Shown: one piece after another, positions 509 through 56,014 of the stretch
Layout: each line of letters opens with the position of its first letter
Position numbering within the stretch: the first letter of the stretch is position 1
From: Eledone cirrhosa
Lineage: Eukaryota
Length of the DNA: 64,000 nt
Assembly (NCBI GenBank): GCA_964016885.1
Contig: OZ024740.1
Location: forward strand, 9,052,001 to 9,116,000
Direction of reading: 5' to 3'
Notes under the pieces: model-generated
What the model was told of the DNA's origin: nothing
The model's database searches: none
The model's input: only the letters and a program-made list of their open reading frames with translations
Translations under genes and position numbers: made by a program

Positions 509-2387
509 TCAGTTTCGATTAGTATATCAGTTTCTATTGGTATGTCAATTTCGATTGGTATGTCAGTTTCGATTGGTATATCAGTTTCGAATGGTATTTC
601 AATCTCGATTGGTATGTCAGTTTCGATTGGTATATCAGTTTCGATTAGTATGTCAGTTTCTATTGGTATATCAGTTTCGTGTGGTATATCAGTTTCTATT
701 GGTATTTCTTTGGTATATCAGTTTCGATTGGTATGTCATTTTCTATTGGTATATCAGCTTCGATTGGTATATCAGTTTCAATTGGAATATCAGTTTCGAT
801 TGGTATGTCACTTTCTATTGGTATGTCAGTTTCGATTGGTATATCAGTTTCGATTGGTATATCAGTTTCTATTGCTATGTCAGTTTCTATTAGTATATCA
901 GTTTCGGTTGGTATGTCAATTTCTATTGGTATATCAGTTGCGATTGGTATGTCACTTTCGATTGGTATGTCAGTTTCAATTGTTATGTCAGTGTCTATTG
1001 GTATATCAGTTTCGATTGGTATGTCAGTTTCTATTGGTATATCAGTTTCGTTTGGTATGTCAGTTTTGATTGGTATGTTAGTCCTCGAGTTGTATGGTAG
1101 TTTCTATTGGTATATCAGTTTCGATTGGTATGTCAGTTTCGATTAGTATATCAGTTTCTATTGGTATGTCAGTTTCTATTGGTATATCAGTTTCGATTGG
1201 TATATCAGTTTCGATTGGTATGTCAACTTTGATTGGTATGTCAGTTTTGATTGGTATATCAGATTCGACTGGTATATCACTTTCTATTTATATATCAGTT
1301 TCTATTGGTATGTCAGTTTCAATTGGTATGTCAGTTTCTATTGGTATATCAGTTTTGATTGGTATGTCAGTTTCTATTGGTATGTCAGTTTCTATTAGTA
1401 TATCAGTTTCTATTGATAAGTCAGTCTCTATTGGTATATCAGTTTCGAATGGTATTTCAGTTTCGATTGGTATATCACTTTCGATTGTTATGTCAGTTTC
1501 AATTGGTATATCAGTTTCTATTGGTATATCAGTTTCGTTTGGTATGTCAGTTTCGATTGGTATGTTAGTCCTCGAGTTGTATGGTAGTTTCTATTGGTAT
1601 ATCAGTTTCGATTGGTATGTCAGTTTCTATTGGTATATCAGTTTCGATTGGAATATCAGTTTCGATTGGTATGTCATGATCTATTGGTATGTCAGTTTCG
1701 ATTGGTATATCAGTTTCGATTGGTATATCAGTTTCTATTGCTATATCAGTTTCTATTGGTATATCAGTTTCGATAGGTATGTCAGTTTCTATTGGTATAT
1801 CAGTTGCGATTGGTATGTCAGTTTCTATTGGTATGTGAATTTCGATTATTATATCAGTTACTATTGGTATGTCAGTTTCGATTGGTATGTCAGTTTCGAT
1901 TGTTATGTCAGTGTCTATTGGTATATCAGTTTCGATTGGTATGTCAGTTTCTATTGGTATATCAATTTCGATTGGTATTTCAGTTTCGATTGGTATATCA
2001 GTTTCTATTGTTACGTCAGTTTCGATTGGTATATCAGTTTCTATTGGTATATCAGTTTCGATTGGTATGTCAGTTTCTATTACTATCATCATCATCATCA
2101 TCACCGTTTTACGTCCGTTCTTCCACGCTAGCATGGGTTAGACGGGTTGTCCTGTTGTGGGCAGTGTCTGGTCGGCTGACCATGCCTTGCTCATACAGGA
2201 ACTGATCTGGCTTGATTTCTACAGCTGGATGCCCTTCCTAACACCAACCTCATTTACAGTGAGTTCTGGGTGCTTTTTCGTGGCGCCTACACGTCCACTT
2301 TACAGTGTGGGCTGGGTGCTTTTTTGCCGTGGCACCTCCACGACCACCTTGCGGTGGGGGGGGGGGGGAGCATATTGTTTATATGCT

Positions 2388-5300
2388 TCAGCATGTACCC
2401 ATGTGAGGTCGGGTACCCTGTATTACTGCGTGACGCCAGAAGTCACGGTCGTGTGTCATTGACTTTGAGAGGTGTAGTTGGATAAGGTCGGCTTTTATCA
2501 CCTCATCCCAAGTCATCTTGGGTCTCCCCACTCCGCGGTTTCCATCAACTTCTAGTGCTCTGCACCTTTTTATGCAGCTGTCATCCTTCATACGCATCAC
2601 ATGTCCATACCAGCGTAACCGCCTCTCCTGCACGCAGCATTTGATTCCTCTTATGCTCAGTCTCTCTCTCAATTCATTTATGCTTTGTCGTTCACGTATA
2701 TTACTGTTACACATCCATCGGAGCATGCAGGCTTCGTTTCTCTCTAATCTACGTAAGTCTTCCACCTTCAGCGCCCAGGTCTCACTACCATGCAACATCG
2801 CTGTTCGGATACACGCATCATACAGTCTGCCTTTCATTCTGAGGGAGAAGCCTTTTGCAGCTAGCAGTGGTAGTAGTTCCCTAAACTTCTTCCATCCCGT
2901 TCTTACCCTAGTTATTGTACTTTCTGAGCACCCACCTCCGTTGCTAATTCGGTCACCTAGGTAGCAGAAGCTGTCTACTGTTTCTACAGGGCCCTCCCAG
3001 AGATTGGTGGTACTTGTTTCCTGTGGCTGTTTGCTTGCTGTTTCAGCACAGCTGCTGCATGTGAATCCTACATTCTTAATTAAGCTTCCTGAGATCCCGC
3101 TACATCTCTTGTGTACCCATTGTTTGCATTTGGGGCAAAGAATGGAGTTCCTACCTACACCTTTCCTACATACTGAGCAAGGCCATTTCCCTGAGGGGAT
3201 CTGGGTTCTGTTTTCTCGTCTACTTATAAGGACCTTAGTCTTTGTCATGTTGACTTTGAGGCCCTTTCTCTCTAGTCCCTGCTTCCAGGTTTGGAATTTA
3301 TTCTCTAGTTCTACCATAGATTCAGCTATGAGTGCGAGGTCATCAGCATACAGGAGTTCCCATGGGCATCCGGTCTTAAACTCCTCCGTTATTGCCTGCA
3401 GGACTATGATGAACAGGAGAGGGCTAAGAACAGAGCCCTGGTGGACCCCAACCTGTACGCTAAATTCCTCGCTATACTCATTGCCAATCCTAACTTTGCT
3501 GACTGCTCCCCTATACATGGCTTGTACCGCTTTCACAAGCCATTCATCTACTCCTAGTTTTCTAAGAGCCCACCAGATTACTGCACGTGGAACTCTGTCA
3601 AAGGCTTTCTCAAGGTCGACAAATGCCAAGTAGAGTGGCTTACTTTTAGCTAGGTACTTTTCCTGTAATTGCCTCACAAGGAAGAGCGCATCAGTGGTGC
3701 CTTTCCCTGGAACAAACCCAAATTGCATCTCGTCTATATTCACCCGGTCCCTAATCAGCTGTGCTATAACTCTTTCTGTTACTTTCATGACCTGGTCCAT
3801 CAACTTTATACCTCTATAGTTTCCTCTATCTAGTGCATCGCCTTTACCTTTGTAGCAGTTGACAATGATGCTACTGCACCAATCTTTTGGTATGGCCCCC
3901 TCTAGTATTACCTGGTTAACGATACGTGTGGTTATAGTGTGACCTACAGACCCAGATGCCTTCAGCATCTCGGCAGCTATACCCGATGGACCGGTTGCCT
4001 TCCCTATCTTCATATCTCTGATTGCCTTACTTACTACGCTGCCGCTGACTTGTACTGCTCGTCCCTCTATAGGGTCTACGTGGGGTAGGGTCTCTTCTTC
4101 CCATGCATTCTCCTCATTTAGTAATCTATCATAATGACTCTTCCATGCATCTTTCTTCTCAGCACTTGTGAGGGCAAGCTCACCTTTATCATTCCGGATA
4201 CACTTCTCTCCAATGACATCACAACTATCTCTGACACACTGCCTCGCAATCTTGAATACCTCCTGTTTCTGGTCCTCACGTTGTAAAACATGCTTGAATT
4301 TTCTATCCTCTGCTTCCCTCCTAGCTAAGTATACTTGTCGCCTAGCTTCCCTCTTGGTCTCTATGTAATGTACCCTGCTCCCCCCGTTCTTCCATTCTTT
4401 CCATGCCTGTCTCTTGGCCTTGACTGCTTCATCTACCTTATTGTTCCACCACCAAGTCACTCTCCTCCTGCTTGAGGTCTTACTCCAGCCACAAACCTCA
4501 TCCGTCGCCTCTAGTAAGTTATTTTTTAGGAACTCCCAGTTCTCTTCTACGTTAAATGTCTCTATCTGTTCTTCTTTACTGTCGTAGGCGTTGAGTAAAA
4601 TATCTTTAAATCTGTTACTGGTTGAGGGGACTTTCAGCTTCCAGATCTTTCTTCTCCAGGTTGGCCTCTGTTTCAGGGCTCGTCTAGTTCTGACCGTGAG
4701 GTCGCTGACAACTAAGCTATGTTGGGATGTACATTCCTCACTAGGGAAGGCTTTTGTGTTTACGACCGTCCATCTGTCACGTCCTCTGATGAGGATAAAA
4801 TCTAACTGACTAGAGTGCTCCCCTGATCTATAGGTGATCAGGTGGTTGTCGGGTTTTTTAAAGTTTGTGTTACATATCAACATGTCATTGGCGTCGCAGA
4901 ATTCTAGAAGTCTGAATCCTTCCTCATTCCTTGTGCCAACTCCATGGCCTCCATGTACTCTATTGAAGCCGTCGCAGTGTTTACCTACGTGTCCGTTAAA
5001 ATCTCCTGCAATGATTAGGAAGTCCTTGTCGTCTGTTAGAGCAGTAGTGTGTATTAGGGACTCGTAAAACCTATCCTTAAGTTCGTCTGGCAGCCCCGAT
5101 TGGGGTGCGTAAGCTGATATTATTGTGGTAATTGTCTTATTCAGGACTAGTCTGAGTTTAATGATTCTTGCATTTACCCTGTACACTGAGATTACTTTAT
5201 CTACCCACTTGTCAGCTAATAGTATACCTACACCACCCATCCCATCGTCATTTCCCACCCAGAAAAATTTGTAGCACTGGCTTTTTCCTACAAGGACTCT

Positions 5301-5507
5301 AGCAGACCCTCCTCTCCATCTAGTCTCTTGCACACAGCATACATCAACTTCCTTTCGCTCTAGCATTTCTACGATTTCTCCTGCTCTTCCTTTCATTGAG
5401 CCTACATTGATGGTACCAACTCGGAGTTTTGGGCATTTGTCGACACTCGTAGGGGAGGGTCTCTGGGTTGGCGCTTCACGTGGGTGCTTGGTAGCTCGCA
5501 GATTCAT
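2388..5507 (-). CDS. RTE-type polyprotein (1039 aa): AP endonuclease + reverse transcriptase + embedded PHD-type zinc finger
   Basis: APE motifs GTINVGSM, CVQETRW, SAYAPQ, AGDFNGH, QLDFIL. RT motifs NYRGIKL, QFGFVPG, FVDLEKAFDRV, GVHQGSVLSPLLF, LLYADD. C4HC3 finger at 3048-3185. RTE C-terminal RRLRWYGHVMRM..GRPKMTW. Confidence 0.95.
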   Translation of the reverse strand: MNLRATKHPREAPTQRPSPTSVDKCPKLRVGTINVGSMKGRAGEIVEMLERKEVDVCCVQETRWRGGSARVLVGKSQCYKFFWVGNDDGMGGVGILLADKWVDKVISVYRVNARIIKLRLVLNKTITTIISAYAPQSGLPDELKDRFYESLIHTTALTDDKDFLIIAGDFNGHVGKHCDGFNRVHGGHGVGTRNEEGFRLLEFCDANDMLICNTNFKKPDNHLITYRSGEHSSQLDFILIRGRDRWTVVNTKAFPSEECTSQHSLVVSDLTVRTRRALKQRPTWRRKIWKLKVPSTSNRFKDILLNAYDSKEEQIETFNVEENWEFLKNNLLEATDEVCGWSKTSSRRRVTWWWNNKVDEAVKAKRQAWKEWKNGGSRVHYIETKREARRQVYLARREAEDRKFKHVLQREDQKQEVFKIARQCVRDSCDVIGEKCIRNDKGELALTSAEKKDAWKSHYDRLLNEENAWEEETLPHVDPIEGRAVQVSGSVVSKAIRDMKIGKATGPSGIAAEMLKASGSVGHTITTRIVNQVILEGAIPKDWCSSIIVNCYKGKGDALDRGNYRGIKLMDQVMKVTERVIAQLIRDRVNIDEMQFGFVPGKGTTDALFLVRQLQEKYLAKSKPLYLAFVDLEKAFDRVPRAVIWWALRKLGVDEWLVKAVQAMYRGAVSKVRIGNEYSEEFSVQVGVHQGSVLSPLLFIIVLQAITEEFKTGCPWELLYADDLALIAESMVELENKFQTWKQGLERKGLKVNMTKTKVLISRRENRTQIPSGKWPCSVCRKGVGRNSILCPKCKQWVHKRCSGISGSLIKNVGFTCSSCAETASKQPQETSTTNLWEGPVETVDSFCYLGDRISNGGGCSESTITRVRTGWKKFRELLPLLAAKGFSLRMKGRLYDACIRTAMLHGSETWALKVEDLRRLERNEACMLRWMCNSNIRERQSINELRERLSIRGIKCCVQERRLRWYGHVMRMKDDSCIKRCRALEVDGNRGVGRPKMTWDEVIKADLIQLHLSKSMTHDRDFWRHAVIQGTRPHMGTC

Positions 5508-5821
5508 ATTTCATCTATTGATTCAGAGTTGCTCGTGTATTCCCAGCTCATCCATCCCTAACGGTGGGAAAATTGAGGGCTAGAAGGACAGTGGTGGTGG
5601 GGTAATGGCAGGGTGTGTTGGGATGCGCCAGAGGAGGAGAGAGTTAGTTAGGCAGGTAGTAGCAGCAGCAGCAGTGGAAATGGCATGCTAGGTTTGATTG
5701 GTCGAATAGACTATGGTGGTGTGTGGGGGTGGGGGGGGAGGGAAATTGTGAGGTAGGAACTGAGGGTCGCATGGTAAATATCCAAGTTAATACTACATCA
5801 GTAAAATTAACAATAATAACG

Positions 5822-6217
5822 TCATGAAAAAAGCTACTAAGAGAAACCCTCGAAAATTTATCGCTAATACAGCAGGGAAAATTTAACGCTAATACAGCAG
5901 GGAACATCATAATATTAACGACATGAAAAAGCTACTAAGAGAAACCCTCGAAAATTTATCGCTAATACAGCAGGGAAAATTTAACGCTAATACAGCAGGG
6001 AACATCATAATATTAACGACATGAAAAAGCTACTAAGAGAAACCCTCGAAAATTTATCGCTAATACAGCAGGGAAAATTTAACGCTAATACAGCAGGGAA
6101 CATCATAATATTAACGACATGAAAAAGCTACTAAGAGAAACCCTCGAAAATTTATCGCTAATACAGCAGGGAAAATTTAACGCTAATACAGCAGGGAACA
6201 TCATAATATTAACGACA
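5822..6217 (-). repeat. 98-bp tandem repeat (4 copies) in the family A 5' region; each unit contains two 25-bp sub-repeats
   Basis: acatgaaaaagctactaagag recurs at 5921, 6019, 6117. The internal repeat gaaaattta(t/a)cgctaatacagcagg occurs twice per unit. Confidence 0.92.
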
Positions 6218-6521
6218 ATATGTAGGCTAAAATACCTTCGTAGATTAGGTGGATGGCTGGCTGGGAAAATTTGAATCAGCTCTAGTGGTACATTTTAGCA
6301 GAGAAGAATGGCAAAGTGTCTTATCTCTTCAATATTTTCAGATTGAATGAATTAGGTTAAAGACAGGGTAGTAAGCCTTAAAGAAGTGCATAGAGGGGGG
6401 GGGTATGAACTGAGGGTCGCATGGTAAATAACTGAGAGAGATACAATAGGATTAGAATACCGCATGGTAAATATCCAAGTTAATAAGTTAATACTACATC
6501 AGTAAAATTAACAATAATAAC

Positions 6522-6834
6522 GTCATGAAAAAAGCTACTAAGAGAAACCCTCGAAAATTTATCGCTAATACAGCAGGGAAAATTTAACGCTAATACAGCA
6601 GGGAACATCATAATATTAACGACATGAAAAAGCTACTAAGAGAAACCCTCGAAAATTTATCGCTAATACAGCAGGGAAAATTTAACGCTAATACAGCAGG
6701 GAACATCATAATATTAACGACATGAAAAAGCTACTAAGAGAAACCCTCGAAAATTTATCGCTAATACAGCAGGGAAAATTTAACGCTAATACAGCAGGGA
6801 ACATCATAATATTAACGACATGAAAAAGCTACTA
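6522..6834 (-). repeat. Second 98-bp repeat array (3 copies plus a partial one), part of a ~700-bp higher-order duplication in the family A 5' region
   Basis: Same unit as 5822-6217. The flanking gaactgagggtcgcatggtaaata and ttaatactacatcagtaaaattaac are also duplicated (about 5757 and 6407). Confidence 0.9.
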
Positions 6835-7564: not shown

Positions 7565-9253
7565 CATATCGACCCAATAGAGGGACCAGCAGTGTTAGTC
7601 GAGGGGAGTATAATAAGTAAGGCAATCAAGGATATGAAGACGGGTAAGGCGGCTGGGCCTTCGGAAATATTTGCTGAGATGCTGAAGGCATCTGGCATGG
7701 TGGGACACACCATGGTCACCCGCATAGTTAACCAAGTCGTACAGAATGGGGTTGTTCCGAAGGACTGGCATAGCAGCATCATCGTTAACTGTTATAAGGG
7801 TAAAGGAGACGCCCTAGATAGGTGTAACTATAGAGGCATTAAATTAATCGACCAGGTCATGAAGGTCACGGAAAAAGTAATAGCGCAACTAATCAGAGAG
7901 AGAATTGACCTAGATGAAATGCAGTTCGGGTTTGTGTCAGACAAAAGTACCACAGACGCTCTTTTCATAGTACGACAACTACAGGAGAAGTACCTAGCTA
8001 AAGGTAAACCCCTCTACTTAGCTTTTGTCGACTTGGAGAAAGCCTTCGACAGAGTCCCCCGCTCCATTATCTGGTGGGCTCTTAGAAAACTAGGCGTTGA
8101 CGAATGGCTTGTGAGGGCTATACAAGCCATGTATAAAGAAACAGTCAGCAAGGTTAGAATTAACAACGAGTATAGTGAAGAGTTTAGCGTAAAAGTTGGC
8201 GTCCATCAGGGCTCTGTTCTCAGCCCACTACTATTTATTATTGCCCTTCAGGCTATAACAGAGGAGTTCAAGACAGGCTGCCCATGGGAACTCCTATACG
8301 CAGACGACCTGACACTCATAGCGGAATCAATGGCCGAGCTAGAGAAGAAATTCCAAACATGGAAGCACGGCCTAGAGTCAAAAGGACTTAAAATTAACCT
8401 GGCTAAGACCAAAGTACTAGTTTGTAGGAAAGAAAACAAGGCGGCGGTCCCTTCTGGGAAATGGTCGTGCTCGGTGTGTAGGAAAGGTGTAGGTAGAAAC
8501 TCCATTTTATGTCCTAAATGCAAAGTATGGGTGCATAAAAGATGTAGTGGGATCACAGGTAAGCTAACTAAGAACATAGATTTTACATGTGGCCGGTGTT
8601 CTGGTGCAATAAGTAGCAGCAAGTGCCCACAAAATACTAGCTCTTTCAATTGCGCAGAGGGTTCTATAGAAATAGTGGACAGCTTCCGTTACCTGGGCGA
8701 TAAAATCAGCAGTGGGGGAGGGTGCTCTGAAAGTACTGTAGCTAGAGTCAGAACTGGTTGGAAAAAGTTCAGAGAGCTTATACCACTATTAGCTGCTAAA
8801 GGGTTCTCCCTAAAAATGAAAAGCAGGTTGTACGATGCCTGCATACGAACAGCAATGCTGCATGGCAGTGAGACCTGGGCATTGTGTGCAGAGGATATAC
8901 GCAGACTAGAGAGGAACGAAGCTTGCATGCTCCGCTGGATGTGTAACAATAATATACGTGAACGGCAAAGCATAAACGAACTAAGGAAAAAATTAGAGAT
9001 AAGAGGGATCAGATGTTGTTTACTCGAGAGAAGGCTACGTTGGTATGGACACGTGATGCGCATTAAAGTTGATAGCTGTATAACAAAGTGCAGGGCAATA
9101 AAGATAGACGGTAGTCACGGAATAGGCAGACCTAGAAAAACCAGGGACGAGCTGATAAACTCCGACCGCACACACTTACACCTCTCCAAGACAATGTCAC
9201 TGGACCGAGACCTTTTGCGGTACTCAGTAACAGAGAAGACCCGCCTTACCTAA
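7565..9253 (+). pseudogene. 5'-truncated but uninterrupted RTE RT + PHD finger reading frame (family B)
   Basis: IDPIEGPA...FVDLEKAFDRV...LLYADD...WSCSVCRKG...stop at 9253. Lacks the APE domain and native start. Confidence 0.88.
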
Positions 9254-9655
9254 ATATATAGTAAAACCTACTCCAGCCAGTAGGCATCTCTAACAAAATA
9301 CACCCCGTCCCACCACCACCACCACCCCCATCCCATCCACACCACCCCGTTCTATGTAAAGTTATGTTGGTGCCGCGCCATCGAGGCCGAAACAAATGAG
9401 ATCGTGTAGGTGTCACGACAAAAAACACACAGTCCACGCTGTAATGTGGCCGTGTAGGCAACACGGTAAAAACCTCCCAGACCCACACTGTAAATGTGGT
9501 TGGTGTTAGGAAGGGCATCCAACTGTAGAAAACCTGCCAGACAGTCCTATGCGAGCAAGACAATCACTCTTGCCTCAAGTGGGACTACCCCCGTCCAAAC
9601 CCATGCAAGCGTGGAACACGGACGTTAAACGTTGATGATGATGATGATGATGATG
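7565..9655 (+). mobile_element. RTE LINE family B, 5'-truncated (no endonuclease), (GAT)n tail
   Basis: RT frame runs to 9253, then 3' UTR and tail at 9633-9655. The flanks rejoin to match an uninterrupted satellite paralog at ~10741-10800, implying a target duplication of at most ATGTCA. Confidence 0.93.
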
Positions 9656-16793: not shown

Positions 16794-17190
16794 AATAACT
16801 ACACCTCTCAAATACAATGACACACGACCGTGACTTCTGGCGTCACGCAGTAATACAGGGTATCCGACCTCCCATGGGTACATGCTGAAGCATATAAACC
16901 ATATGCCCCCACTCCCTGCACCGCAAGGTGGTCGTGGAGGTGCCACGGCAAAAAAGCACCCAGCCCACACTGTAAAGTGGACGTGTAGGCGCCACGAAAA
17001 AGCACCCAGCACTCACTGTAAATGAGGTTGGTGTTAGGAAGGGCATCCAGCTGTAGAAACCAAGCCAGATCAGTTCCTGTATGAGCAAGGCATGGTCAGC
17101 CGACCAGACACTGCACACAACAGGACAACCTGTCTAACCCATGCTAGCGTGGAAGAACGGACGTAAAACGGTGATGATGATGATGATGAT
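16794..17190 (+). mobile_element. RTE LINE family A 3' fragment (~395 bp) with (GAT)n tail
   Basis: aactacacctctcaaa...ggacgtaaaacggtgatgat matches the family A 3' end. The tail joins AT|ATCAG. Confidence 0.93.
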
Positions 17191-20553: not shown

Positions 20554-20950
20554 AATAACTACACCTCTCAAATACAATGACACACGACCGTGACTTCTGG
20601 CGTCACGCAGTAATACAGGGTATCCGACCTCCCATGGGTACATGCTGAAGCATATAAACCATATGCCCCCACTCCCTGCACCGCAAGGTGGTCGTGGAGG
20701 TGCCACGGCAAAAAAGCACCCAGCCCACACTGTAAAGTGGACGTGTAGGCGCCACGAAAAAGCACCCAGCACTCACTGTAAATGAGGTTGGTGTTAGGAA
20801 GGGCATCCAGCTGTAGAAACCAAGCCAGATCAGTTCCTGTATGAGCAAGGCATGGTCAGCCGACCAGACACTGCACACAACAGGACAACCTGTCTAACCC
20901 ATGCTAGCGTGGAAGAACGGACGTAAAACGGTGATGATGATGATGATGAT
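20554..20950 (+). mobile_element. Duplicate of the 16794-17190 family A fragment (segmental copy, not a new insertion)
   Basis: Same sequence and flanks at +3760. Confidence 0.93.
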
Positions 20951-26270: not shown

Positions 26271-28561
26271 ATTGGTATGTCAGTTTCAATTGGTATGTCA
26301 GTTTCTATTGGTATGTCAGTTTCGATGTGTATATCAGTTTCTATTGATATGTCAGTCTCTATTGGTATATCAGTTTCGATTGGTATGTCAGTTTCGATTG
26401 GTATATCAGTTTCGACTGGTATGTCAGTTTCGATTGGTATATCAGTTTTGAATGGTATTTCAATCTCGATTGGTATGTCAGTTTCGTTCGGTATGTTAGT
26501 CCTCGATTTGTATGTTAGTTTCTATTGGTATATCAGTTTCGATTGGTATGTCAGTTTCAATTGGTATGTCAATTTCGATTGGTATGTCAGTTTCGATTGG
26601 TATATAAGTTTCTATTGCTATATCAGTTTCTATTGGTATATCAGTGTCGATTGGTATGTCAGTTTCTATGGGTATATCAGTTTCAATTGGTATGTCAATT
26701 TCTATTGGTATGTCATTGGTATATCAGTTTCGAATGGTATGTCTGACTTGATTGGTATATCAGTTTCTATTGGTATATCAGTTTCGATTGGTATGTCAGT
26801 TTCTATTGGTATATCAGTTTCGATTAGTATGTCAGTTTCTATTGCTATATGAGTTTCTATTGGTATATCAGTTTCTATTGGTATATCAGTTTCTATTGGT
26901 ATGTCCGTTTTGATGGGTATGTCAGTTTCTATAGGCATATCAGTTTTGATTGTTATGTTAGGTTCTATTGGTATGTCAGTTTCGATTAGTATGTCAGTTT
27001 CGATTGGTATGTCAGTCCTCGAGTTGTATGTCAGTTTCTATTGGTATATCAGTTTCGATTTTATGTCAGTTTCGATTAGTATATCAGTTTCTATTGGTAT
27101 GTCATTTTCTATTGGTATGTCAGTTTTGATTGGTATATCAGATTCGACAGGTATATCACTTTCTATTGCTATATCAGTTTCTATTGGTATGTCAGTTTCA
27201 ATTCGGATGTCAGTTTCTATTGGTATATCAGTTTTGATTGGTATGTCAGTTTCGATTGGTATATCAGTTTCGATTGGTATATCAGTTTCGATTGGTATGT
27301 TAGTTTCTATTGGTATGTCAGTTTCGATTAGTATATTAGTTTCTATTGGTATGTCAGTTTCGATTGGTATGTTAGTCCTCTATTCGTATGTCAGTTTCTA
27401 TTGGTATATCAGTTTCCATTGGTATGTCAGTTTCGATTAGTATATCAGTTTCTATCTGTATGTCAGTTTCTATTGGTATATCAATTTCTATTGCTATATC
27501 AGTTTCTATTGGTACATCAGTTTCAATTGGTATGTCAGTTTCTATTGGTATATCAGTTTCAATTGGTATGTTAGTTTCTATTGGTATATCAGTTTCTATT
27601 GGTATATCAGTTTCGATTGGTATGTCAGTTTCTATTGGTATATCAGTTTCAATTGGTATGTTAGTGTCTATTGGTATATCAGATTCGATTAGTATGTCAG
27701 TTTCGATTAGTATATTAGTTTCTATTGGTATATCAGTTTCGATTGGTATATCAGTTTCTTTTGGTATATCAGTTTCGATTGGTATGTCAGTTTCGATTGG
27801 TATGTCAGTTTCGATTGCTATGTCAGTTTCGATTGCTATGTCAGTTTCGATTGGTATGTCAGTTTCGATTGGTATATCAGTTTTGAATGGTATTTCAATC
27901 TCGATTGGTATGTTAGTTTCTATTGGTATGTCAATTTTGATTAGTATATCAGCTTCTATTGGTATGTCAGTTCCGATTGGTATGTTAGTCCTCGATTTGT
28001 ATGTCAGTTTCTATTGGTATATCAGTTCCGATTGGTATGTCAGTTTCAATTGTTATATCAGTTGCGATTGGTATGTCAGTTTCCATTGGTATGTCAGTTT
28101 CGATTATTATATCAGTTACTATTGGTATGTCAGTTTCGATTGGTATGTCAGTTTCGATTGTTATGTCAGTCTCTATTGGTATATAAGTTTCGATTGGTAT
28201 GTCAGTTTCGATTAGTATATCAGTTCCTATATTTGTCAGTTTCTATTGGTATATCAGTTTCGATTGGTATGTCAGTTTCGATTAGTATATCAGTTTCTAT
28301 TGGTACGTCAGTTTCTATTTGTATATCAGTTTCGTTTGGTATATATATATTTTTCTTGGGCTCTGCTAGAGTCAGCAGCAACACACAACCACGTGTTGCT
28401 ACACACACACAAGAGGAAAGAGAAAAAAAAAAAAAAAAAAATTTAAAATTTATGAGACCAATAGAGATATGTACATTTATATATTTATATCTAGATATTG
28501 CTATCATCATTTACAGTCCCTCTGTGTTTAATGTATGTTCATTAGTATATGTGTTGTTATC

Positions 28562-28860
28562 TCTGCTTGCATTTTGCATATATACATATATATATCTATA
28601 TATATGCTTGCGTGACCCCTCTCAAAAATTTGTTGGATTTTCTAATTGGATACCCCAACACTGGATACCAACACTGAATACACCTGAACTTCTACCAGGA
28701 AATCTTTCGTTGTCATTTCTGCTTGCATTTTACATATATAGATATATATATCAATGGTTGCGTGGACCCCTCTTAAAGATTCGTTGGATTTTCTAATTGG
28801 ATACCCCGAAACTGGATACCAATCACTGAATACACCTGAACTTCTACCAGGAAATCTTTC
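28562..28860 (+). repeat. Diverged ~150-bp direct duplication in the family C leader
   Basis: ttggattttctaattggatacccc...ctgaatacacctgaacttctaccaggaaatctttc ends at 28708 and again at 28860. Confidence 0.85.
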
Positions 28861-29109
28861 ATATCAGTGAAAATTTTCTTTTCTTTGCTTCATATATATA
28901 TATTATATATACTTGTCCGCCATTGCAAAAGGCCATAAATTCAAAATTTTGAAGAGAGAGGAAAAGAGAGAAGTGATCTATGAACTTGTAACATCTCACT
29001 TACCCCCCCCCCCCGTCACCACAATAACAATAACGCCTACACTCGCTCCCCACCATCACCACATTACTCTAAGGTCGCTGTCCTGTCCCCTGTTGACATA
29101 CTGCTGACT

Positions 29110-29769
29110 ATCTTTTGATGTATGTATGTGTATATACATATGTGTATGTGTGTGTATATGTATATCTCTGTGGATGCGACCAGATTTCAACACAGCAACA
29201 ACTACAACAACAACAGCAGCAACACCAACAACAACAACAACAGCAACAACACCATCGTCTGTGTTGAATGTGTGTGTATGTATTTGTATATATGCGACAG
29301 CAATAACAGCATCAACACCATTGTCTGCAGCAACAGCAGCAGTGAAATGAAGGACAACAACAACAGTAACAACTACAATAACAACTACAGCACCAACAAC
29401 TGTCACCACCATCACTGACCATCCACCACCACCACGCTGATACCATCCACCACCACCACACTGACACCATCCACCACCGCCATTACCAGCGTAAACAAAC
29501 AATTATTATTGTTATTGTTATTATATACAAGCCGAACTGGACTGGGAAAGGTCAACAGTTGACATGATAGTGATTTTGACGATTTTGACTTTGATTTTGA
29601 TTTTGTATCAGTACTGTCGGTAATATATGTATATATATATATGTGTTTGTGAGTTGTGTGTGTGATTGTATTCATGAATGAGTGTTGGTATGTGTGGTTG
29701 TGGTTTGTATGCATGAGTATTAGTGTGTGAGTCGTGTCAATAAGTTTTTTTTTTTTTTTTTTTTTTTTT
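29110..29769 (+). repeat. Microsatellite-rich tract (TA/TG, CAA/CAG, CAC, GATTTT) ending in poly(T), within the family C leader
   Basis: Read directly; poly(T) at about 29745-29769. Confidence 0.85.
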
Positions 29770-29773
29770 AATG

Positions 29774-29910
29774 ACCATGCTGTAAAATGGAGGGGTAGAG
29801 AGGGCCCTTGAGTCTAGTAAGACATCCTCACTAGTGCTGGTGGCACAAATAAAAGCACCCAGTCCATGCTGTAAAGTGGCGCTGGTGTTAGGAAGGGCAT
29901 CCAACCAGTG
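29774..29910 (+). other. Putative structured RNA module in the family C 5' UTR, homologous to the 3' UTR module of families A and B
   Basis: gtgctggtggcac-aaataaaa-gcacc, ccatgctgtaaagtgg and ctggtgttaggaagggcatccaaccag match 16932-17060 and 9402-9532. The structure is inferred by eye. Confidence 0.6.
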
Positions 29911-29964
29911 TATCAATGCCAAAAAGCTTATCAGCACAGCAACAAAACAGCATAGAAAAAAAAT

Positions 29965-32900
29965 ATGAAGACGTCGCATCTCAGAGTTGCAACACTTAAT
30001 GTTGGCACTCTCAGAGGTAGATCTGCTGAAATAGCGGAGATGCTGGAGAGAAGGCAGGTGGATGTGTGCTGCGTGCAAGAGGTGAGATGGAGAGGTGCCT
30101 CTGCGAGACTAGTCGTAGGCAAGCGTCTTAGCTATAAGCTATTCTGGGTAGGTAAGGATGATGGGTTAGGGGGAGTAGGCATTTTCCTGGCTGAGAAATG
30201 GATCAATAAGACAATAGAGGTAGTTCGAGTTAGTAATCGAATAATTAAGCTGAGATTAGTTGTAGGTAGGAGACTACTGACAATCATCTCGGTCTATGCT
30301 CCCCAAGCAGGCCTAGGCAAAGATGAGAAAGACTGCTTTTATGAGCAACTTTTGCAAACAACCACAATGACAGAGGACGGAGACATCGTTATGCTAGCAG
30401 GAGACTTCAATGGTCATGTTGGACAGCTCCAGGATGGTTACACTGGGGTACATGGTGGGCATGGTTACGGTTCAAGAAATGAAGAAGGAGTGAGACTTCT
30501 TGAATTTTGTGATGCAAGTACATTGACTATTTGCAACACAAACTTCCAGAAACCTGCCAATCACCTAATAACCTACAAATCTGGTGAGCACATAAGCCAG
30601 ATTGACTTCCTGCTAGTTAGGCAGCGGGACAGGCAGATAGTGTCTAATACCAAGGCATACCCTGGGGAAGAATGTACCCCACAGCATAGGTTAGTTGTTA
30701 GTGATATCTCAGTAAGCAAGAGATGGAATGAGACATATAGGAAGGTGTGGAGAAGAAAGGTCTGGAAGCTAAAAGACCTTTCACTAAAATTCAAATTTAG
30801 GAAAGCCCTTCAAGATGTATATGACGAAAAAGAAGACGATTTAGAGACGTATGACATAGATAATAACTGGAAGTTCTTACGTGACAACTTGCTGAAGGCT
30901 ACTGATGAAACCTGTGGCTGGAGCCGAGCTCCAACCAGACAGAGAGTGACCTGGTGGTGGAACAGCAGTGTAGATAAGGCTATTAGAGACAAAAGACTAG
31001 CATGGAAGGCTTGGAATAAGGGTGGGAGTAGGGAAGAATATACAGCCACTAAGAGAGAAGCTAGACGTCAGGTGTACTTAGCACGCAGGGAGGCAGAGAG
31101 TAGGAGGTTTGCCAATGTTCTGCGACGGGAAGATCAGAGGCGTGCGGTGTTCCACATTGCAAGGCAGTGTGTCAATGCAAATCAGGATGTTGTTGGTGAT
31201 AAATGTGTCCGGGATGATGCCGGTGTACTTAGTGTCACGAATGACCAGAAAAAGGAGGCCTGGAAATGTCATTATGAGAGACTGATGAATGTGGAGAACG
31301 AATGGGAGAGAGAGAAATTACTCTTGGTAGATCCGACAGAGGGACCAGCTATTGAGATTGACGAATATAGGGTCCAAGAGGCGATTAGGGAAATGAAAAA
31401 TGGTAAGGCGGCCGGACCATCGGGAATAGTTGCTGAGATGCTGAAGGCATCAGGGGACGTAGGCACTAAACTGGTTGCACGCATAATCAATCAGGCTATA
31501 TATGGTGGTGTCATACCCAAAGACTGGTGCAGCAGTATTCTCATAAATTGCTACAAAGGTAAAGGGGATGCTTTGGAGAGGAGCAATTATAGGGGTATAA
31601 AACTGATAGATCAGGTTATGAAAGTGGCAGAAAGGATTTTAGCACAACTAATTAGAGAAAGGGTCAAACTAGATGAGATGCAGTTTGGTTTTGTGCCTGG
31701 GAAGAGTACAACAGATGCCCTCTTCTTGGTGAGACAAATGCAAGAGAGGTTCTTAGAGAAGAATAAGCCACTATACTTGGCCTTTGTTGACCTAGAGAAG
31801 GCCTTTGATAGGGTACCCCGATCTGTCATCTGGTGGTCCCTAAGGAAGATGGGTGTTGAGGAATGGCTTGTAAGGACAGTGCAAACTTTGTACAGAGGTA
31901 CTCTCAGTAAAGTCAGGGTAGGAATGGAGTTTAGTGAGGAATTCCAGATACAAGTAGGAGTACATCAGGGTTCGGTCCTCAGCCCGCTCTTGTTCATTAT
32001 AGTCCTCCAAGCCATAACAGAGGAGTTTAAGACTGGCTGTCCATGGGAACTTCTCTATGCTGACGATCTGGCTCTTATGGCAGAATCAGTAGAGGAGCTA
32101 GAGAATAAATTCCGGCTATGGAAACAGCAGTTGGAAGCAAGAGGACTGAGAGTAAATCTAGCTAAGACAAAAGTGTTGATGAGTAGAAAAGAGGACAAAA
32201 CCCTGATTCCGTCAGGGAAATGGCCATGTTCGATATGCAGAAAAGGAACTGGCATAAATTCTATAAAATGCACACAATGTAGGTCCTGGGTACACAAGAG
32301 ATGTAGCGGGATAGCAGGCAAACTAACAGGTAGGGAGAACTATGTATGCAGTAGATGTACAGGGAAATTAGACAGTAGAAGTCGCACTGATAGACACATT
32401 TTTCAAATGCGAGAGGGCGCTATAGAAGTGGTGGATAGCTTCCGGTACCTAGGAGATCAGATTAGCATGGGAGGAGGGTGTTCCGAGGCCATAGTATCTA
32501 GAATAAGGACGGGTTGGAAGAAGTTTAGGGAGCTGCTTCCTCTGTTGACGAAGAAGGGTTTCTCCCTGCGTACGAAAGGCCGGTTGTATGATGCCTGTGT
32601 GAGGAGCGCGATGCTGCATGGTAGTGAGACATGGGCAGCTACCGCAGAAGATATGCGACGGCTGGAGAGAAATGAGGCAAGCATGCTCCGTTGGATGTGC
32701 AGTGTAAATGTGCGTGAACGACCCAGCATAAATGTGTTGAGAGAGAAACTGTGTCTGAGAGGGATAGAATGTAGTGTACGGGAGAGGAGACTGAGGTGGT
32801 ATGGACATGTGATGCGCATGGAGGATGACCGATGGGTGAAGAAGTGCCAGGAAATGCCAGTTGAAGGAAGACGTGGTAGAGGTAGACCACGAAAAACATG

Positions 32901-33033
32901 GGCGGAGGTGGTGAGAACAGACCTCAGATCATTGAAGCTCACGGTGGAGATGACGAGGGACCGTCACGAGTGGAGAGATGCTGTGCTGAATAAGACCCGT
33001 CCCACCCTTGCAAGCAGGGAAAAGCGGACGTAA
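29965..33033 (+). CDS. RTE-type polyprotein (1022 aa): AP endonuclease + RT + PHD-type finger (family C)
   Basis: ATLNVGTL, CVQEVRW, SVYAPQ, AGDFNGH, FVDLEKAFDRV, LLYADD; C4HC3 finger at 32221-32358; RLRWYGHVMRM, GRPRKTW. Confidence 0.95.
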   Translation: MKTSHLRVATLNVGTLRGRSAEIAEMLERRQVDVCCVQEVRWRGASARLVVGKRLSYKLFWVGKDDGLGGVGIFLAEKWINKTIEVVRVSNRIIKLRLVVGRRLLTIISVYAPQAGLGKDEKDCFYEQLLQTTTMTEDGDIVMLAGDFNGHVGQLQDGYTGVHGGHGYGSRNEEGVRLLEFCDASTLTICNTNFQKPANHLITYKSGEHISQIDFLLVRQRDRQIVSNTKAYPGEECTPQHRLVVSDISVSKRWNETYRKVWRRKVWKLKDLSLKFKFRKALQDVYDEKEDDLETYDIDNNWKFLRDNLLKATDETCGWSRAPTRQRVTWWWNSSVDKAIRDKRLAWKAWNKGGSREEYTATKREARRQVYLARREAESRRFANVLRREDQRRAVFHIARQCVNANQDVVGDKCVRDDAGVLSVTNDQKKEAWKCHYERLMNVENEWEREKLLLVDPTEGPAIEIDEYRVQEAIREMKNGKAAGPSGIVAEMLKASGDVGTKLVARIINQAIYGGVIPKDWCSSILINCYKGKGDALERSNYRGIKLIDQVMKVAERILAQLIRERVKLDEMQFGFVPGKSTTDALFLVRQMQERFLEKNKPLYLAFVDLEKAFDRVPRSVIWWSLRKMGVEEWLVRTVQTLYRGTLSKVRVGMEFSEEFQIQVGVHQGSVLSPLLFIIVLQAITEEFKTGCPWELLYADDLALMAESVEELENKFRLWKQQLEARGLRVNLAKTKVLMSRKEDKTLIPSGKWPCSICRKGTGINSIKCTQCRSWVHKRCSGIAGKLTGRENYVCSRCTGKLDSRSRTDRHIFQMREGAIEVVDSFRYLGDQISMGGGCSEAIVSRIRTGWKKFRELLPLLTKKGFSLRTKGRLYDACVRSAMLHGSETWAATAEDMRRLERNEASMLRWMCSVNVRERPSINVLREKLCLRGIECSVRERRLRWYGHVMRMEDDRWVKKCQEMPVEGRRGRGRPRKTWAEVVRTDLRSLKLTVEMTRDRHEWRDAVLNKTRPTLASREKRT

Positions 33034-34559
33034 AATGATGATGATGATGATGATGATATCAGTTTCGATTTGTATGTCAATTTCGATTGGTATGTCAGTT
33101 TCGATTGGTATATCAGATTCGACTGGTATATCACTTTCTATTGCTATATCAGTTTCTATTGGTATGTCAGTTTCAATTTGTATGTCAGTTTCTATTCGTA
33201 TATAAGTTTCGATTGGTATCTCAGTTTCTATTGGTATGTAAGTTTCTATTGGTATATCAGTTTCGATTGATATGTCAGTTTCGATTTTTATATCAGTTTC
33301 GATTGGTATGTCAGTTTCGATTGGTATATCAGTTTCTATTGGTATATCAGTTTCGATTGGTATGTCAGTTCCTATTGCTATGTCAGTTTAGATTGGTATG
33401 TCAGTTTCAATTGGTATATCAGTTTCAATTGGTATATCAGTTTCGAATGGTATTTCAATCTCGATTGGTATGTCTTTTTCGATTGGTATATCAGTTTCGA
33501 TTAGTATGTCAGTTTCTATTGGTATATCAGTTTTGATTGGTATATCAGTTTCCATTGGTATGTTAGTTTCTATTGGTATGTCAGTTTCGATTAGTATATC
33601 AGTTTCTATTGGTATGTCAGTTTCGATTGGTATGTTAGTCCTCTATTTGTATGTCAGTTTCTATTGGTATATCAGTTTCGATTGGTATGTTTGTTTCGAT
33701 TAGTATATCAGTTTCTATCTGCATGTTAGTTTCTATTGGTATATCAATTTCTATTGCTATATCAGTTTCTATTGGTATGTCAGTTTCAATTGGTATGTCA
33801 GTTTCTATTGGTATATCAGTTTCGATTGGTATGTCAGTTTCTATTGGTATGTCAGTTTCAATTGGTATGTTAGTTTCTATTGGTATATCAGTTTCGATTG
33901 GTATGTCAGTTTCTATTAGTATATTAGTTTCTATTGGTATATCAGTTTCAATTGGTATATCAGTTTCTATTGGTATATCAGTTTCGATTGGTATGTCAGT
34001 TTCGATTGGTATGTCAGTTTTGATTGCTACGTCAGTTTCGATTGGTATATCAGTTTCGATTGGTATATCAGTTTTGAATGGTATTTCAATCCCGATTGGT
34101 ATGTTAGTTTCTATTGGTATGTCAGTTTCGATTAGTATATCAGCTTCTATTGGTATGTCAGTTCCGAATGGTATGTTAGTCCTCGATTTGTATGTTAGTT
34201 TCTATTGGTATATCAGTTTCGATTGGTATGTCAGTTTCAATTAGGATATCAGTTTCCATTGGTATATCAGTTTCTATTGGTATATCAGTTTTGATTGGTA
34301 TGTCAGTTTCTATTGTTATATCAGTTGCGATTGGTATGTCAGTTTCTATTGGTATGTCAGTTTTGATTGGTATATCAGTATCGAATGGTATTTCAATCTC
34401 GATTGGTATGTCAGTTTCGATTGGTATATCAATTTCGATTGGTATATCAGTTTCGATAGGTATGTTAGTTTCTATTGGTATGTCAGTTTCGATTAGCATA
34501 TCAGTTTCTATTGGTATGTCAGTTTCGATTGGTATGTTAGTCCTCTATTTGTTTGTCAG

Positions 34560-41600: not shown

Positions 41601-44278
41601 TTGGTATATCAGTTTCGATTGGTATGTCAGTTTCTATTGGTATGTCAGTTTCTATTAGTATATTAGTTGCTATTGGTATGTCAGTCTCTATTGGTATATC
41701 AGTTTCGATTGGTATGTAAGTTTCTATTGGTATATCAGTTTCGATTGATATGTCAGTTTCGATTTTTATATCAGTTTCTATTGGTATGTCAGTTTCGATT
41801 GGTATATCAGTTTCGATTGGTATATCAGTTTCGATTTGTATGTCAATTTCGATTGGTATGACAGTTTCGATTGGTATATCAGTTTCTATTGGTATATCAG
41901 TTTTAATTGGTATGTTAGTTTCTATTGGTATGTCAGTTTCGATTAGTATATCAGCTTCTATTGGTATGTCTGTTTTATTGGTATGTTAGTCCTCGATTTG
42001 TATGTCAGTTTCTATTGGTATATCAGTTTCGATTGATATGTCAGTTTCAATTAGTACATCAGTTTCTATTGGTATATCACTTTCTATTGCTATATCAGTT
42101 TCTATTGGTATGTCAGTTTCAATTGGTATGTCAGTTTCTATTGGTATGTCAGTTTCGATGTGTATATCAGTTTCTATTGATATGTCAGTCTCTATTGGTA
42201 TATCAGTTTCGATTGGTATGTCAGTTTCGATTGGTATATCAGTTTCGACTGGTATGTCAGTTTCGATTGGTATATCAGTTTTGAATGGTATTTCAATCTC
42301 GATTGGTATGTCAGTTTCGTTCGGTATGTTAGTCCTCGATTTGTATGTTAGTTTCTATTGGTATATCAGTTTCGATTGGTATGTCAGTTTCAATTGGTAT
42401 GTCAATTTCGATTGGTATGTCAGTTTCGATTGGTATATAAGTTTCTATTGCTATATCAGTTTCTATTGGTATATCAGTGTCGATTGGTATGTCAGTTTCT
42501 ATGAGTATATCAGTTTCAATTGGTATGTCAATTTCTATTGGTATGTCATTGGTATATCAGTTTCGAATGGTATGTCTGACTTGATTGGTATATCAGTTTC
42601 TATTGGTATATCAGTTTCGATTGGTATGTCAGTTTCTATTGGTATATCAGTTTCGATTAGTATGTCAGTTTCTATTGCTATATGAGTTTCGATTGGTATA
42701 TCAGTTTCTATTGGTATGTCATTGGTATATCAGTTTCGAATGGTACGTCAGACTCGATTGGTATATCAGTTTCGATTGGTATATCAGTTTCGATTGGTAT
42801 CTCAGTTTCTATTGGTATATCAGTTTCTATTGGTATGTCCGTTTTGATGGGTATGTCAGTTTCTATAGGCATATCAGTTTTGATTGTTATGTTAGGTTCT
42901 ATTGGTATGTCAGTTTCGATTAGTATGTCAGTTTCGATTGGTATGTCAGTCCTCGAGTTGTATGTCAGTTTCTATTGGTATATCAGTTTCGATTTTATGT
43001 CAGTTTCGATTAGTATATCAGTTTCTATTGGTATGTCATTTTCTATTGGTATGTCAGTTTTGATTGGTATATCAGATTCGACAGGTATATCACTTTCTAT
43101 TGCTATATCAGTTTCTATTGGTATGTCAGTTTCAATTCGTATGTCAGTTTCTATTGGTATATCAGTTTTGATTGGTATGTCAGTTTCGATTGGTATATCA
43201 GTTTCGATTGGTATATCAGTTTCGATTGGTATGTTAGTTTCTATTGGTATGTCAGTTTCGATTAGTATATTAGTTTCTATTGGTATGTCAGTTTCGATTG
43301 GTATGTTAGTCCTCTATTCGTATGTCAGTTTCTATTGGTATATCAGTTTCCATTGGTATGTCAGTTTCGATTAGTATATCAGTTTCTATCTGTATGTCAG
43401 TTTCTATTGGTATATCAATTTCTATTGCTATATCAGTTTCTATTGGTACATCAGTTTCAATTGGTATGTCAGTTTCTATTGGTATATCAGTTTCAATTGG
43501 TATGTTAGTTTCTATTGGTATATCAGTTTCTATTGGTATATCAGTTTCGATTGGTTTGTCAGTTTCTATTGGTATATCAGTTTCAATTGGTATGTTAGTT
43601 TCTATTGGTATATCAGATTCGATTAGTATGTCAGTTTCGATTAGTATATTAGTTTCTATTGGTATATCAGTTTCGATTGGTATATCAGTTTCTTTTGGTA
43701 TATCAGTTTCGATTGGTATGTCAGTTTCGATTGGTATGTCAGTTTCGATTGCTATGTCAGTTTCGATTGCTATGTCAGTTTCGATTGGTATGTCAGTTTC
43801 GATTGGTATATCAGTTTTGAATGGTATTTCAATCTCGATTGGTATGTTAGTTTCTATTGGTATGTCAATTTTGATTAGTATATCAGCTTCTATTGGTATG
43901 TCAGTTCCGATTGGTATGTTAGTCCTCGATTTGTATGTCAGTTTCTATTGGTATATCAGTTTCGATTGGTATGTCAGTTTCAATTGTTATATCAGTTGCG
44001 ATTGGTATGTCAGTTTCCATTGGTATGTCAGTTTCGATTATTATATCAGTTACTATTGGTATGTCAGTTTCGATTGGTATGTCAGTTTCGATTGTTATGT
44101 CAGTCTCTATTGGTATATAAGTTTCGATTGGTATGTCAGTTTCGATTAGTATATCAGTTCCTATATTTGTCAGTTTCTATTGGTATATCAGTTTCGATTG
44201 GTATGTCAGTTTCGATTAGTATATCAGTTTCTATTGGTACGTCAGTTTCTATTTGTATATCAGTTTCGTTTGGTATAT

Positions 44279-54900: not shown

Positions 54901-56014
54901 ATCAGTTACTATTTGTATGTCAGTTTCTATTGGTATATCAGTTTCATTTGGTATGTAAGTCTCTATTGGTATATCAGTTTCGATTAGTATATCAGTTCCT
55001 ATAGGTGTCAGTTTCTATTGGTATATCAGTTTCGATTGGTATGTAAGTTTCTATTGGTATATCAGTTTCGATTGGTATGTCAGTTTCGATTAGTATATCA
55101 GTTTCTATTGGTACGTCAGTTTCTATTAGTATATCAGTTTCGATTGGTATATCAGTTTCGATTGGTATATCAATTTCTATTGCTATATCACTTTCTATTG
55201 GTATATCAGTTTCGTTTGGTATCTCAGTTTCTATTGGTATATCAGATGCGATTGGTATGTCAGTTTCGATTGGTATGTCAGTTTCGATTGTTATGTCAGT
55301 CTCTATTGGTATATCAGTTTCGATTGGTATGTCAGTTTCGATTGGAATATCAGTTTCTACTGGAATATCAATTTCGATTGGTATGTCAGTTTCGATTGGT
55401 ATGTCAGTTTCGATTAGCATATCAGTTTCTATTGGTATGTCAGTTTCTATTGGTATATCACTTTCGATTCGCATATCAGTTTCTATTGGTATATCAGTTT
55501 CGATTGGTATGTCAGTTTGTATTGGTATATCAGTTGCGATTGGTATTCAGTTTCTATTGGTATGTCAGTTTCGATTATTATATCAGTTACTATTTGTATG
55601 TCAGTTTCTATTGGTATATCAGTTTCATTTGGTATGTAAGTCTCTATTGGTATATCAGTTTCGATTGGTATGTCAGTCTCGATTAGTATATCAGTTTCTA
55701 TTGGTACGTCAGTTTCTATTAGTATATCAGTTTCGATTGGTATATCAGTTTCGATTTGTATGTCAATTTCGATTGGTATGTCAGTTTCGATTGGTATATC
55801 ATATTCGACTGGTATATCACTTTCTATTGCTATATCAATTTCTATTGGTATGTCAGTTTCTATTAGTATATCTGTTTCAATTGGTATGTCAGTTTCTATT
55901 GGTATGTCAGTTTCTACTAGTATATTAGTTTCTATTGGTATGTCTGTCTCTATTGGTATATCAGTTTCGATTGGTATGTCCGTTTCGATTGGTATATCAG
56001 TTTCTATTGGTATA

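What the first reader, a model, noticed from the sequence alone, without database searches (positions are those of the whole stretch)
16932..17060. Covarying structured RNA module (pseudoknot + CUGUAAA hairpin + AGGAAG hairpin) in the 3' UTR of families A and B
Seen: (i) stem CGTG/CACG whose loop can pair downstream after an A-run: A has GGTGC/GCACC, B has GTGT/ACAC (9402-9430), and B's second unit has AGG/CCT. (ii) Hairpins with a conserved CTGTAAA loop: CCAC/GTGG in A, CCACA/TGTGG in B. (iii) GTTGGTGTT-AGGAAG-GGCATCCA(G/A)C, with a G-U to A-U change in B. The pseudoknot and hairpin unit is tandemly doubled in both families. Inference: a selected RNA structure (RNP recognition, translation or stability element, or possibly a ribozyme). 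From memory only, the AGGAAGGGCATCC core resembles conserved domains in RTE-related SINEs (MetaSINE-like); this is unverified.
Basis: partly seen in the sequence, partly recalled or inferred. Interest (0 to 1): 0.72.

Follow-up and report, generated by a model that had tools for sequence, protein, structure and literature searches.

The report
Relocated RNA signal in retrotransposon tails
A small, likely folded RNA segment that RTE-type jumping genes normally carry in front of their protein gene sits behind it in two families of this animal genome, where it likely helps the element's enzyme pick out its own RNA for copying.

Summary
The motifs are present as described. They lie in a 394-nt, 5'-truncated RTE LINE copy inside an 18-bp satellite. 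The module is not a native 3' UTR feature. It is conserved RTE 5' UTR sequence: the same AGGAAG hairpin occurs in published hagfish RTE 5' UTRs and SINEs, and this genome's family C carries the whole module about 55 nt before its ATG. Sister families A and B carry it only after the stop codon, next to the tail; a tRNA/CORE-like SINE carries it too. It is conserved (76-94% identity, against 33-40% at four-fold sites). Stem 1 covaries (5 of 7 pairs change on both sides across 13 units). The pseudoknot stem is plausible but not significant alone. The CUGUAAA loop is lineage-specific, the doubling is optional, and the core was not found in the MetaSINE sequences I could search. A ribozyme is unlikely. 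Best reading, inferred and untested: a position-independent RNA recognition signal that works with the 3' tail hairpin. I found no paper describing this structure or the 5'-to-3' move. An earlier scan note found a satellite derived from the same unit elsewhere in this genome.

The parts
16797..17190 (+). 5'-truncated family A RTE LINE copy (last ~90 nt of the ORF, 3' UTR, GAT repeats) inserted in the 18-bp satellite
   Evidence: (97% to the full copy over 2084-2368)
16886..16888 (+). stop codon of the family A ORF
   Evidence: compared with the intact ORF 2388-5510 minus
16931..16960 (+). unit 1: stem 1 (16931-16937/16943-16949), loop AGGUG, A-rich linker, predicted pseudoknot stem 2 (16939-16942/16957-16960)
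16965..16980 (+). hairpin ii of unit 1 (4 bp, 8-nt loop containing CUGUAAA)
16980..17026 (+). unit 2: weaker stem 1, stem 2 with a C.A mismatch, hairpin ii (4 bp, 7-nt loop)
17026..17052 (+). hairpin iii with AGGAAG loop; the conserved RTE 5' UTR segment
17127..17190 (+). RTE terminal tail hairpin and GAT repeats; family C has a compensated version of the hairpin
   Evidence: 73-82% identity between families
20557..20950 (+). identical duplicate of the same copy (segmental duplication; not independent)
2085..6832 (-). long family A copy: tandem-repeat 5' UTR without the module, 1040-aa APE-RT-PHD ORF (2388-5510), module in the 3' UTR
9401..9532 (+). family B module in the 3' UTR of copy 7571-9654 (also at about 58060-58305 and 59063-59195)
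29790..29906 (+). family C module in the 5' UTR, ~55 nt before the ATG at 29965; its upstream part resembles the conserved RTE/Ceph domain (duplicate copy with core at 45828)

Best explanation
The stem-loop, predicted pseudoknot and hairpins are conserved RTE 5' UTR sequence that sits in the 3' UTR of families A and B, and they likely form an RNA signal that lets the RTE protein recognise its template together with the terminal tail hairpin. Shown: position in each family, conservation, stem 1 covariation, and sister status of A and B. Inferred: (1) The ancestor of A and B gained a short bipartite piece (5' UTR domain plus tail) behind its stop codon, probably by template switching or read-through into such an element, and then replaced its 5' UTR with tandem repeats. 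(2) The signal works from either end of the RNA and in a Pol III SINE, so it is more likely a handle for RNP assembly than a start-codon or processing element. (3) One good unit is enough; duplicates arise by slippage and decay.
For: Mutually exclusive placement. C has the module only in the 5' UTR. A has none in 0.5-6.8 kb of 5' UTR in 12 of 12 fetched copies. B has none in its shared 5' UTR (10 of 18 fetched loci reach it; 4 reach a common start). A and B are sisters (SH-aLRT 98, quick tree) with C outside. In other organisms, 9 of 121 core matches are followed by an RTE N-terminus and none directly follows an ORF end (600-nt flanks). [quoted passage not shown] Of 111 RTE tails in 1.19 Mb, 66 follow the core, 12 follow an ORF end, 2 are at locus edges and 31 are short or decayed pieces with no recurrent module-less family. 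Module identity is 0.76-0.94 against 0.33-0.40 at four-fold sites. Covariation score is 0.283 against 0.144 +/- 0.028 (0/500 shuffles; slid controls at most 0.106). All 5 single-unit elements examined keep stems 1 and 2 intact; broken stem 2 occurs only in duplicated units. Family F changes stem 2 on both sides (5,413 matched units against 83 and 257 single-change forms).
Against: No binding, probing or activity data. Stem 2 alone is not significant (39/500), and RNAalifold, which does not predict pseudoknots, gives only stem 1. The shuffle control ignores relatedness, I picked the 13 representatives, and the top-ranked column pair was a non-structural one. Whole-module folding is no better than shuffles. 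A's true 5' end was not reached, so a far-upstream copy is not excluded. The SINE combines an A-type module with a C-type tail, so recognition cannot be strictly family-specific. Most outside RTE elements have other motifs in place of the pseudoknot, and a generic descriptor found 2 of 58 against 0.63 +/- 0.81 expected. In C the module is close to the ATG, which suits a translation role.
Confidence: 0.5

Rival explanations
1. The module binds a host factor (ribosome or initiation factor). In C it would help start translation; in A, B and the SINE it would park the RNA near newly made RTE protein, as the Alu domain is proposed to do.
For: It lies about 55 nt before the ATG in C. A structured RTE 5' UTR piece supported reporter translation for Perere-3 (PMC8501958 passages). 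The SINE mixes modules and tails across families. The Alu-domain model is stated in PMC7245038 (passages).
Against: The distance to the ORF is longer in outside elements (N-terminal hits start 160-270 nt downstream). A and B keep intact ORFs with no 5' copy.
Confidence: 0.2
2. It is an RNA stability element: a compact pseudoknot with an A-rich strand that blocks exonucleases.
For: An H-type layout with an A-rich linker conserved in all 13 units. That A-rich loops pack against stem 1 is general knowledge, recalled.
Against: It is internal in every context, so it protects no natural end. Stem 2 is only 3-4 bp and is broken in several units.
Confidence: 0.1
3. It acts as DNA, as a transcription-factor site or enhancer, as Kojima 2018 speculated for conserved RTE 5' UTR sequence.
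For: Strong primary-sequence conservation of the AGGAAG core across distant animals. Speculation in the PMC5786205 discussion.
Against: Two-sided base-pair changes in stem 1 and hairpin ii are expected of RNA structure.
Confidence: 0.08
4. In A and B it is a passenger: captured once and kept alike by recombination with the very abundant SINE and 3' fragments.
For: About 230,000 cores by extrapolation (92 in 1.19 Mb). Clear module and tail swapping. Units expand into arrays.
Against: The linkers on both sides diverge (0.22 and 0.57 identity) while the module does not. Differences between families are often compensatory. A and B show no 5' copy.
Confidence: 0.08
5. It is a new self-cleaving ribozyme that fills the slot a twister ribozyme holds in other RTE 5' UTRs.
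For: A twister-P1 match (E 1.6e-7, below the gathering score) lies directly before the same core in L192. A twister-looking motif precedes the core in hagfish RTE-2_EBu (by eye).
Against: No Rfam match in the window; the best weak hit is hammerhead at 16.5 bits against 34. It is internal: 1.5 kb from C's 5' end, and behind the head in 17 of 25 SINE copies. No 5' ends pile up at the unit among 10 A and 11 B hits (small sample). Cleavage in a 3' UTR would cut the ORF from its tail.
Confidence: 0.04

Closest known systems
Conserved RTE 5' UTR segment of hagfish RTE-2_EBu, RTE-4_EBu and their bipartite SINEs (PMC7245038; passages and supplement passages); also zebrafish DANA (bioRxiv 10.1101/493155; passages)
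   Same: Same AGGAAGGGCATCC core and flanks; found in RTE 5' UTRs and next to the RTE tail in SINEs.
   Different: There it follows a twister-looking or another hairpin motif, not this pseudoknot unit. No structure or function is given for it in the passages seen, and the LINEs carry it at the 5' end.
[quoted passage not shown]
   Same: Internal 5' UTR position, sometimes duplicated, carried into SINEs. Metagenome element L217 has a clear copy of this domain running straight into the pseudoknot unit. Family C's 34 nt before stem 1 match OegopSINE at about 22 positions (by eye).
   Different: The C-to-L217 match upstream of the unit is only marginal (102/2000 shuffles). The AGGAAG core is absent from that supplement. 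A and B keep only the 3' tip of the domain. No RNA structure is proposed in the parts read.
Bipartite non-autonomous RTEs and SINEs (Bov-A/Bov-tA, AfroSINE, WALLSI; PMC5786205)
   Same: A 5' UTR piece joined to the 3' tail. This genome's SINE (L086:2783-3112) and metagenome elements L217 and L242 have this build.
   Different: Families A and B are autonomous LINEs with intact ORFs that end in such a bipartite block and lack the domain at the 5' end; I did not find this described.
Twister and HDV-like ribozymes of RTE 5' ends (PMC8501958 passages; PMC6765202 passages)
   Same: Pseudoknotted RNA in an RTE UTR, upstream of the same hairpin in some elements.
   Different: Those sit at the 5' terminus beside the target-site duplication and cleave; this unit is internal, smaller and matches no ribozyme model.

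Membership tests
RTE clade LINE (host element) | single ORF with APE endonuclease followed by RT | tested here: met
   Pfam Exo_endo_phos, RVT_1 and PHD in one 1025-1040 aa ORF
RTE clade LINE (host element) | short tandem-repeat 3' end with a terminal hairpin | tested here: met
   GAT repeats; tail hairpin with compensated stem in A, B and C
RTE clade LINE (host element) | RT phylogeny with named RTE references | tested here: inconclusive
   The tree used mostly unnamed homologs; no curated RTE reference set was included
Conserved RTE 5' UTR AGGAAG segment | core sequence and flanks | tested here: met
Conserved RTE 5' UTR AGGAAG segment | [quoted passage not shown] | tested here: not met
   Met for family C; not for A and B, where it follows the stop codon
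RTE/Ceph conserved domain (Kojima 2018) | sequence similarity over the domain | tested here: inconclusive
   Collinear through bridge L217; upstream part p about 0.05 for C and absent in A and B; comparison with the paper by eye only
MetaSINE Meta-domain | Meta-domain sequence | tested here: not met
   0 hits for the core in supplement file 2 of PMC4824008; BivaMeta-SINE1 shows no likeness; file 1 could not be searched
Self-cleaving ribozymes (twister, HDV-like, hammerhead) | match to the family covariance model | tested here: not met
   0 hits at gathering score; hammerhead 16.5 of 34 bits, E 0.43
Self-cleaving ribozymes (twister, HDV-like, hammerhead) | defines the 5' end of genomic copies | tested here: not met
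   9 of 30 C copies start 1.5 kb upstream; 17 of 25 SINE copies keep their head; no pile-up in A or B
Self-cleaving ribozymes (twister, HDV-like, hammerhead) | cleavage in vitro | not testable with these tools
   needs a bench assay
H-type pseudoknot | stem 1 with covariation | tested here: met
   5 of 7 pairs change on both sides, 84.6% of cells paired
H-type pseudoknot | loop-to-downstream stem 2 with covariation | tested here: inconclusive
   86.5% paired, one two-sided change, 39/500 shuffles reach the score

The most novel reading that the evidence does not exclude
RTE retrotransposons use a two-part RNA signal: a pseudoknot-and-hairpin module plus the tail hairpin. Families A and B are a natural experiment in which the whole signal was compacted into a ~270-nt 3' cassette, freeing the 5' UTR to be replaced. 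This would give the first structure and role for the unexplained conserved RTE 5' UTR and SINE body sequence, and a minimal 3'-only template for RTE-driven insertion.
Probability: 0.4. Interest if true: 0.65.

Novelty: new variant of a known kind. Interest (0 to 1): 0.42.

Why it matters
Why RTE-mobilised SINEs keep a piece of the LINE 5' UTR is an open question (PMC5786205 only speculates). Autonomous families that carry the piece at opposite ends separate the candidate functions and make them testable by swap experiments. RTE elements are also being developed for gene insertion with both UTRs on the template (PMC13708176 passages), so a defined portable signal would be useful. The sequence itself is known, and the function is not shown here.

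Tried and rejected
Rfam at gathering score on the whole window: 0 hits. The weak hammerhead and snoR79 hits were rejected as chance. ARAGORN found no tRNA in 5 SINE-bearing loci, so the head is only tRNA-like. Viral-contig scan: 0 matches. Sequencing runs: no RNA holder listed; the four runs laid were contigs, three only guessed to be RNA, so nothing on expression or cleavage ends. A generic pseudoknot descriptor on metagenome flanks was not above chance. Nearest-hit searches of the genome gave 99-100% copies, useless for covariation. The first structure count used a decayed F copy and misregistered three rows (stem 2 71% paired). It was redone with trimmed units: F replaced by L378, F unit 1 added, the SINE unit dropped as identical to A1 there. 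An alternative register for hairpin iii (GGA/UCC) is unfavoured in A and B (-3.2 against -9.5 kcal/mol) but favoured in C, with a weak T-A association (p 0.022 in 34 clusters, 0.10 in 95 sequences); left open. A likeness to the Deu part of BivaMD-SINE1 (by eye) was not pursued. The protein tree is the quick version; the careful search did not finish. Literature searches that found no description of the structure or relocation. Repbase and Dfam were not available, so the families may be deposited there.

Full report
Setting. The window is an 18-bp satellite array with inserted LINEs of three families, each with one ORF of APE, RT and a PHD finger and GAT-repeat ends. The finding lies in a 394-nt 5'-truncated family A copy at 16797-17190; an identical copy at 20557-20950 comes from a segmental duplication. 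The genome is 3.0 Gb. That it is an octopod is my inference from chromosome sizes and earlier scan notes; no call names it. Families A, B and C are young: the top 40 genomic hits for each are 99-100% identical.

Observation. All three motifs are in the sequence as described. Stem 1 of unit 1 folds to 7 bp (z -2.2), hairpin iii to -9.3 kcal/mol (z -2.2) and hairpin ii weakly (z -1.5). The whole module does not beat shuffles. Rfam has no match.

Where the module occurs. The core also lies at 29890 and 45828, about 55 nt before the ATG of family C, whose tail has no module. Nine of 30 C loci reach a shared 5' start 1.5 kb upstream. Family A has a tandem-repeat 5' UTR with no core in 12 of 12 fetched copies (0.5-6.8 kb covered, true end not reached). 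Family B has about 0.9 kb of 5' UTR with no core (10 of 18 fetched loci reach it, 4 reach a common start). In 119 arbitrary 10-kb stretches there are 92 cores: 31 behind a CORE-like SINE body, 15 behind an ORF end (one counted in both), 1 before an ORF start, 24 with a tail only and 22 unassigned. The SINE has a tRNA-like head, a segment close to the BivaCORE-SINE2 primer (by eye), an A-type module and a C-type tail. A and B are sisters and C is outside them (quick tree, SH-aLRT 98 and 100).

What is known. [quoted passage not shown] Zebrafish DANA has it too (bioRxiv 10.1101/493155, passages). A metagenome scan gave 118 loci. Of 121 matches, 9 are followed by an RTE N-terminus and none directly follows an ORF end within 600-nt flanks, so the 5' position is likely ancestral. 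The slot before the core varies: a twister match in L192, other motifs in most loci, and the same loop-and-A-run unit in three lineages (L150, a 5' UTR; L217 and L242, short elements with RTE tails). In L217 the unit continues the conserved RTE/Ceph domain of PMC5786205 (section 3 parts 1-4 of 5; supplement passages; comparison by eye). Family C's sequence before stem 1 aligns collinearly with it, though only marginally. The MetaSINE recollection fails in the files I could search (PMC4824008, passages and supplement file 2); file 1 was not searchable.

Selection and structure. Four-fold sites are 40% identical between A and B and 33% between either and C. The units are 76-82% identical, hairpin iii 85-94%, and the flanking linkers 22% and 57%. 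On 13 units that I chose (10 from this genome, 3 from outside), stem 1 has two-sided changes at 5 of 7 pairs. The whole-structure score is 0.283 against 0.144 +/- 0.028 (0/500 shuffles; slid controls at most 0.106). This control ignores relatedness, and in a ranking of 231 column pairs a non-structural pair came first, with two stem 1 pairs second and third. Stem 2 alone is 86.5% paired with one two-sided change and is not significant. That change defines family F: 5,413 matched units against 83 and 257 single-change forms, many of those listed lying in tandem arrays; this is one event, not thousands. Units with a broken stem 2 occur only where the unit is duplicated; the 5 single-unit elements are intact. 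Hairpin ii keeps a 3-5 bp stem with some two-sided changes, but its loop is 7-9 nt here and unrelated in the outside lineages. For hairpin iii, the four bases after the core were not fixed by my pattern, and they are pairing-compatible in 93, 94, 91 and 90 of 95 distinct sequences, while the next two vary freely. These are mostly transitions, so the evidence is modest. The U-A pair at 17032 is not general: it is C in 76 of 95 and in 75-84% of depth in three laid runs.

Mechanism. A ribozyme is unlikely: the unit is internal in all contexts, 17 of 25 SINE copies keep their head, and 5' ends of A and B copies are scattered (small sample). A start-codon role does not explain retention behind stop codons and in a SINE. 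Of 111 tails sampled, none formed a recurrent family lacking both ORF and core. I therefore favour a position-independent recognition signal that works with the tail hairpin (0.5). Stringent 3' recognition and an RTE tail hairpin are described in PMC6007223 (passages). Host-factor binding (0.2), stability (0.1), a DNA-level role (0.08), passenger (0.08) and ribozyme (0.04) remain. The ORF ends of A and B resemble the start of C's tail (and the sequence), which fits capture of a bipartite block behind the old end; this step is inferred.

Novelty. The sequence and the bipartite principle are known. The stem and pseudoknot model, and autonomous RTE families with the domain only at the 3' end, were not found in nine searches or in passages of PMC9115989, PMC13282606, PMC4758252, PMC6765202, PMC10085705, PMC8501958 and PMC13708176. 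Repbase, Dfam and subscription journals were not searchable. Verdict: new variant of a known kind, interest 0.42.

Noticed in passing
window 29745-29769 (family C 5' UTR); L038, L045, L047, L055, L056: 5 of 30 family C copies that hold the module begin inside this poly-T tract, a truncation hotspot just upstream of the module.
   Followed up: partly
window 5700-6832 minus; L338-L349: Family A's 5' UTR is a nested tandem-repeat array up to 6.8 kb long with no unique start seen; family B has ~207-nt repeats in its 5' UTR.
   Followed up: partly
L083:7700-10000 minus; L065; L137:200-1100 minus: The 47-49-nt unit expands into arrays of 7 to more than 30 copies inside element 3' UTRs, a likely seed of satellites.
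   Followed up: partly
L086:2783-3112 minus: An abundant ~330-nt SINE: tRNA-like head, CORE-like body, A-type module, C-type tail; about a third of sampled cores.
   Followed up: partly
window 2388-5510 minus, 29956-33033, 55640-57919: All three ORFs carry a PHD-type finger after the RT domain, shared with many unnamed homologs.
   Followed up: no
window 58060-58310; L095:3990-4400: Internal duplications of unit 2 plus hairpin iii in family B copies (2 and 4 cores in a row).
   Followed up: no
window 28341-33057 and 44275-48995; 16797-17190 and 20557-20950: Element copies duplicated together with flanking satellite (15.9-kb and 3.76-kb periods).
   Followed up: partly
L192:618-695 minus: A twister-P1 match directly upstream of the AGGAAG hairpin in an RTE-like element of another organism.
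   Followed up: no
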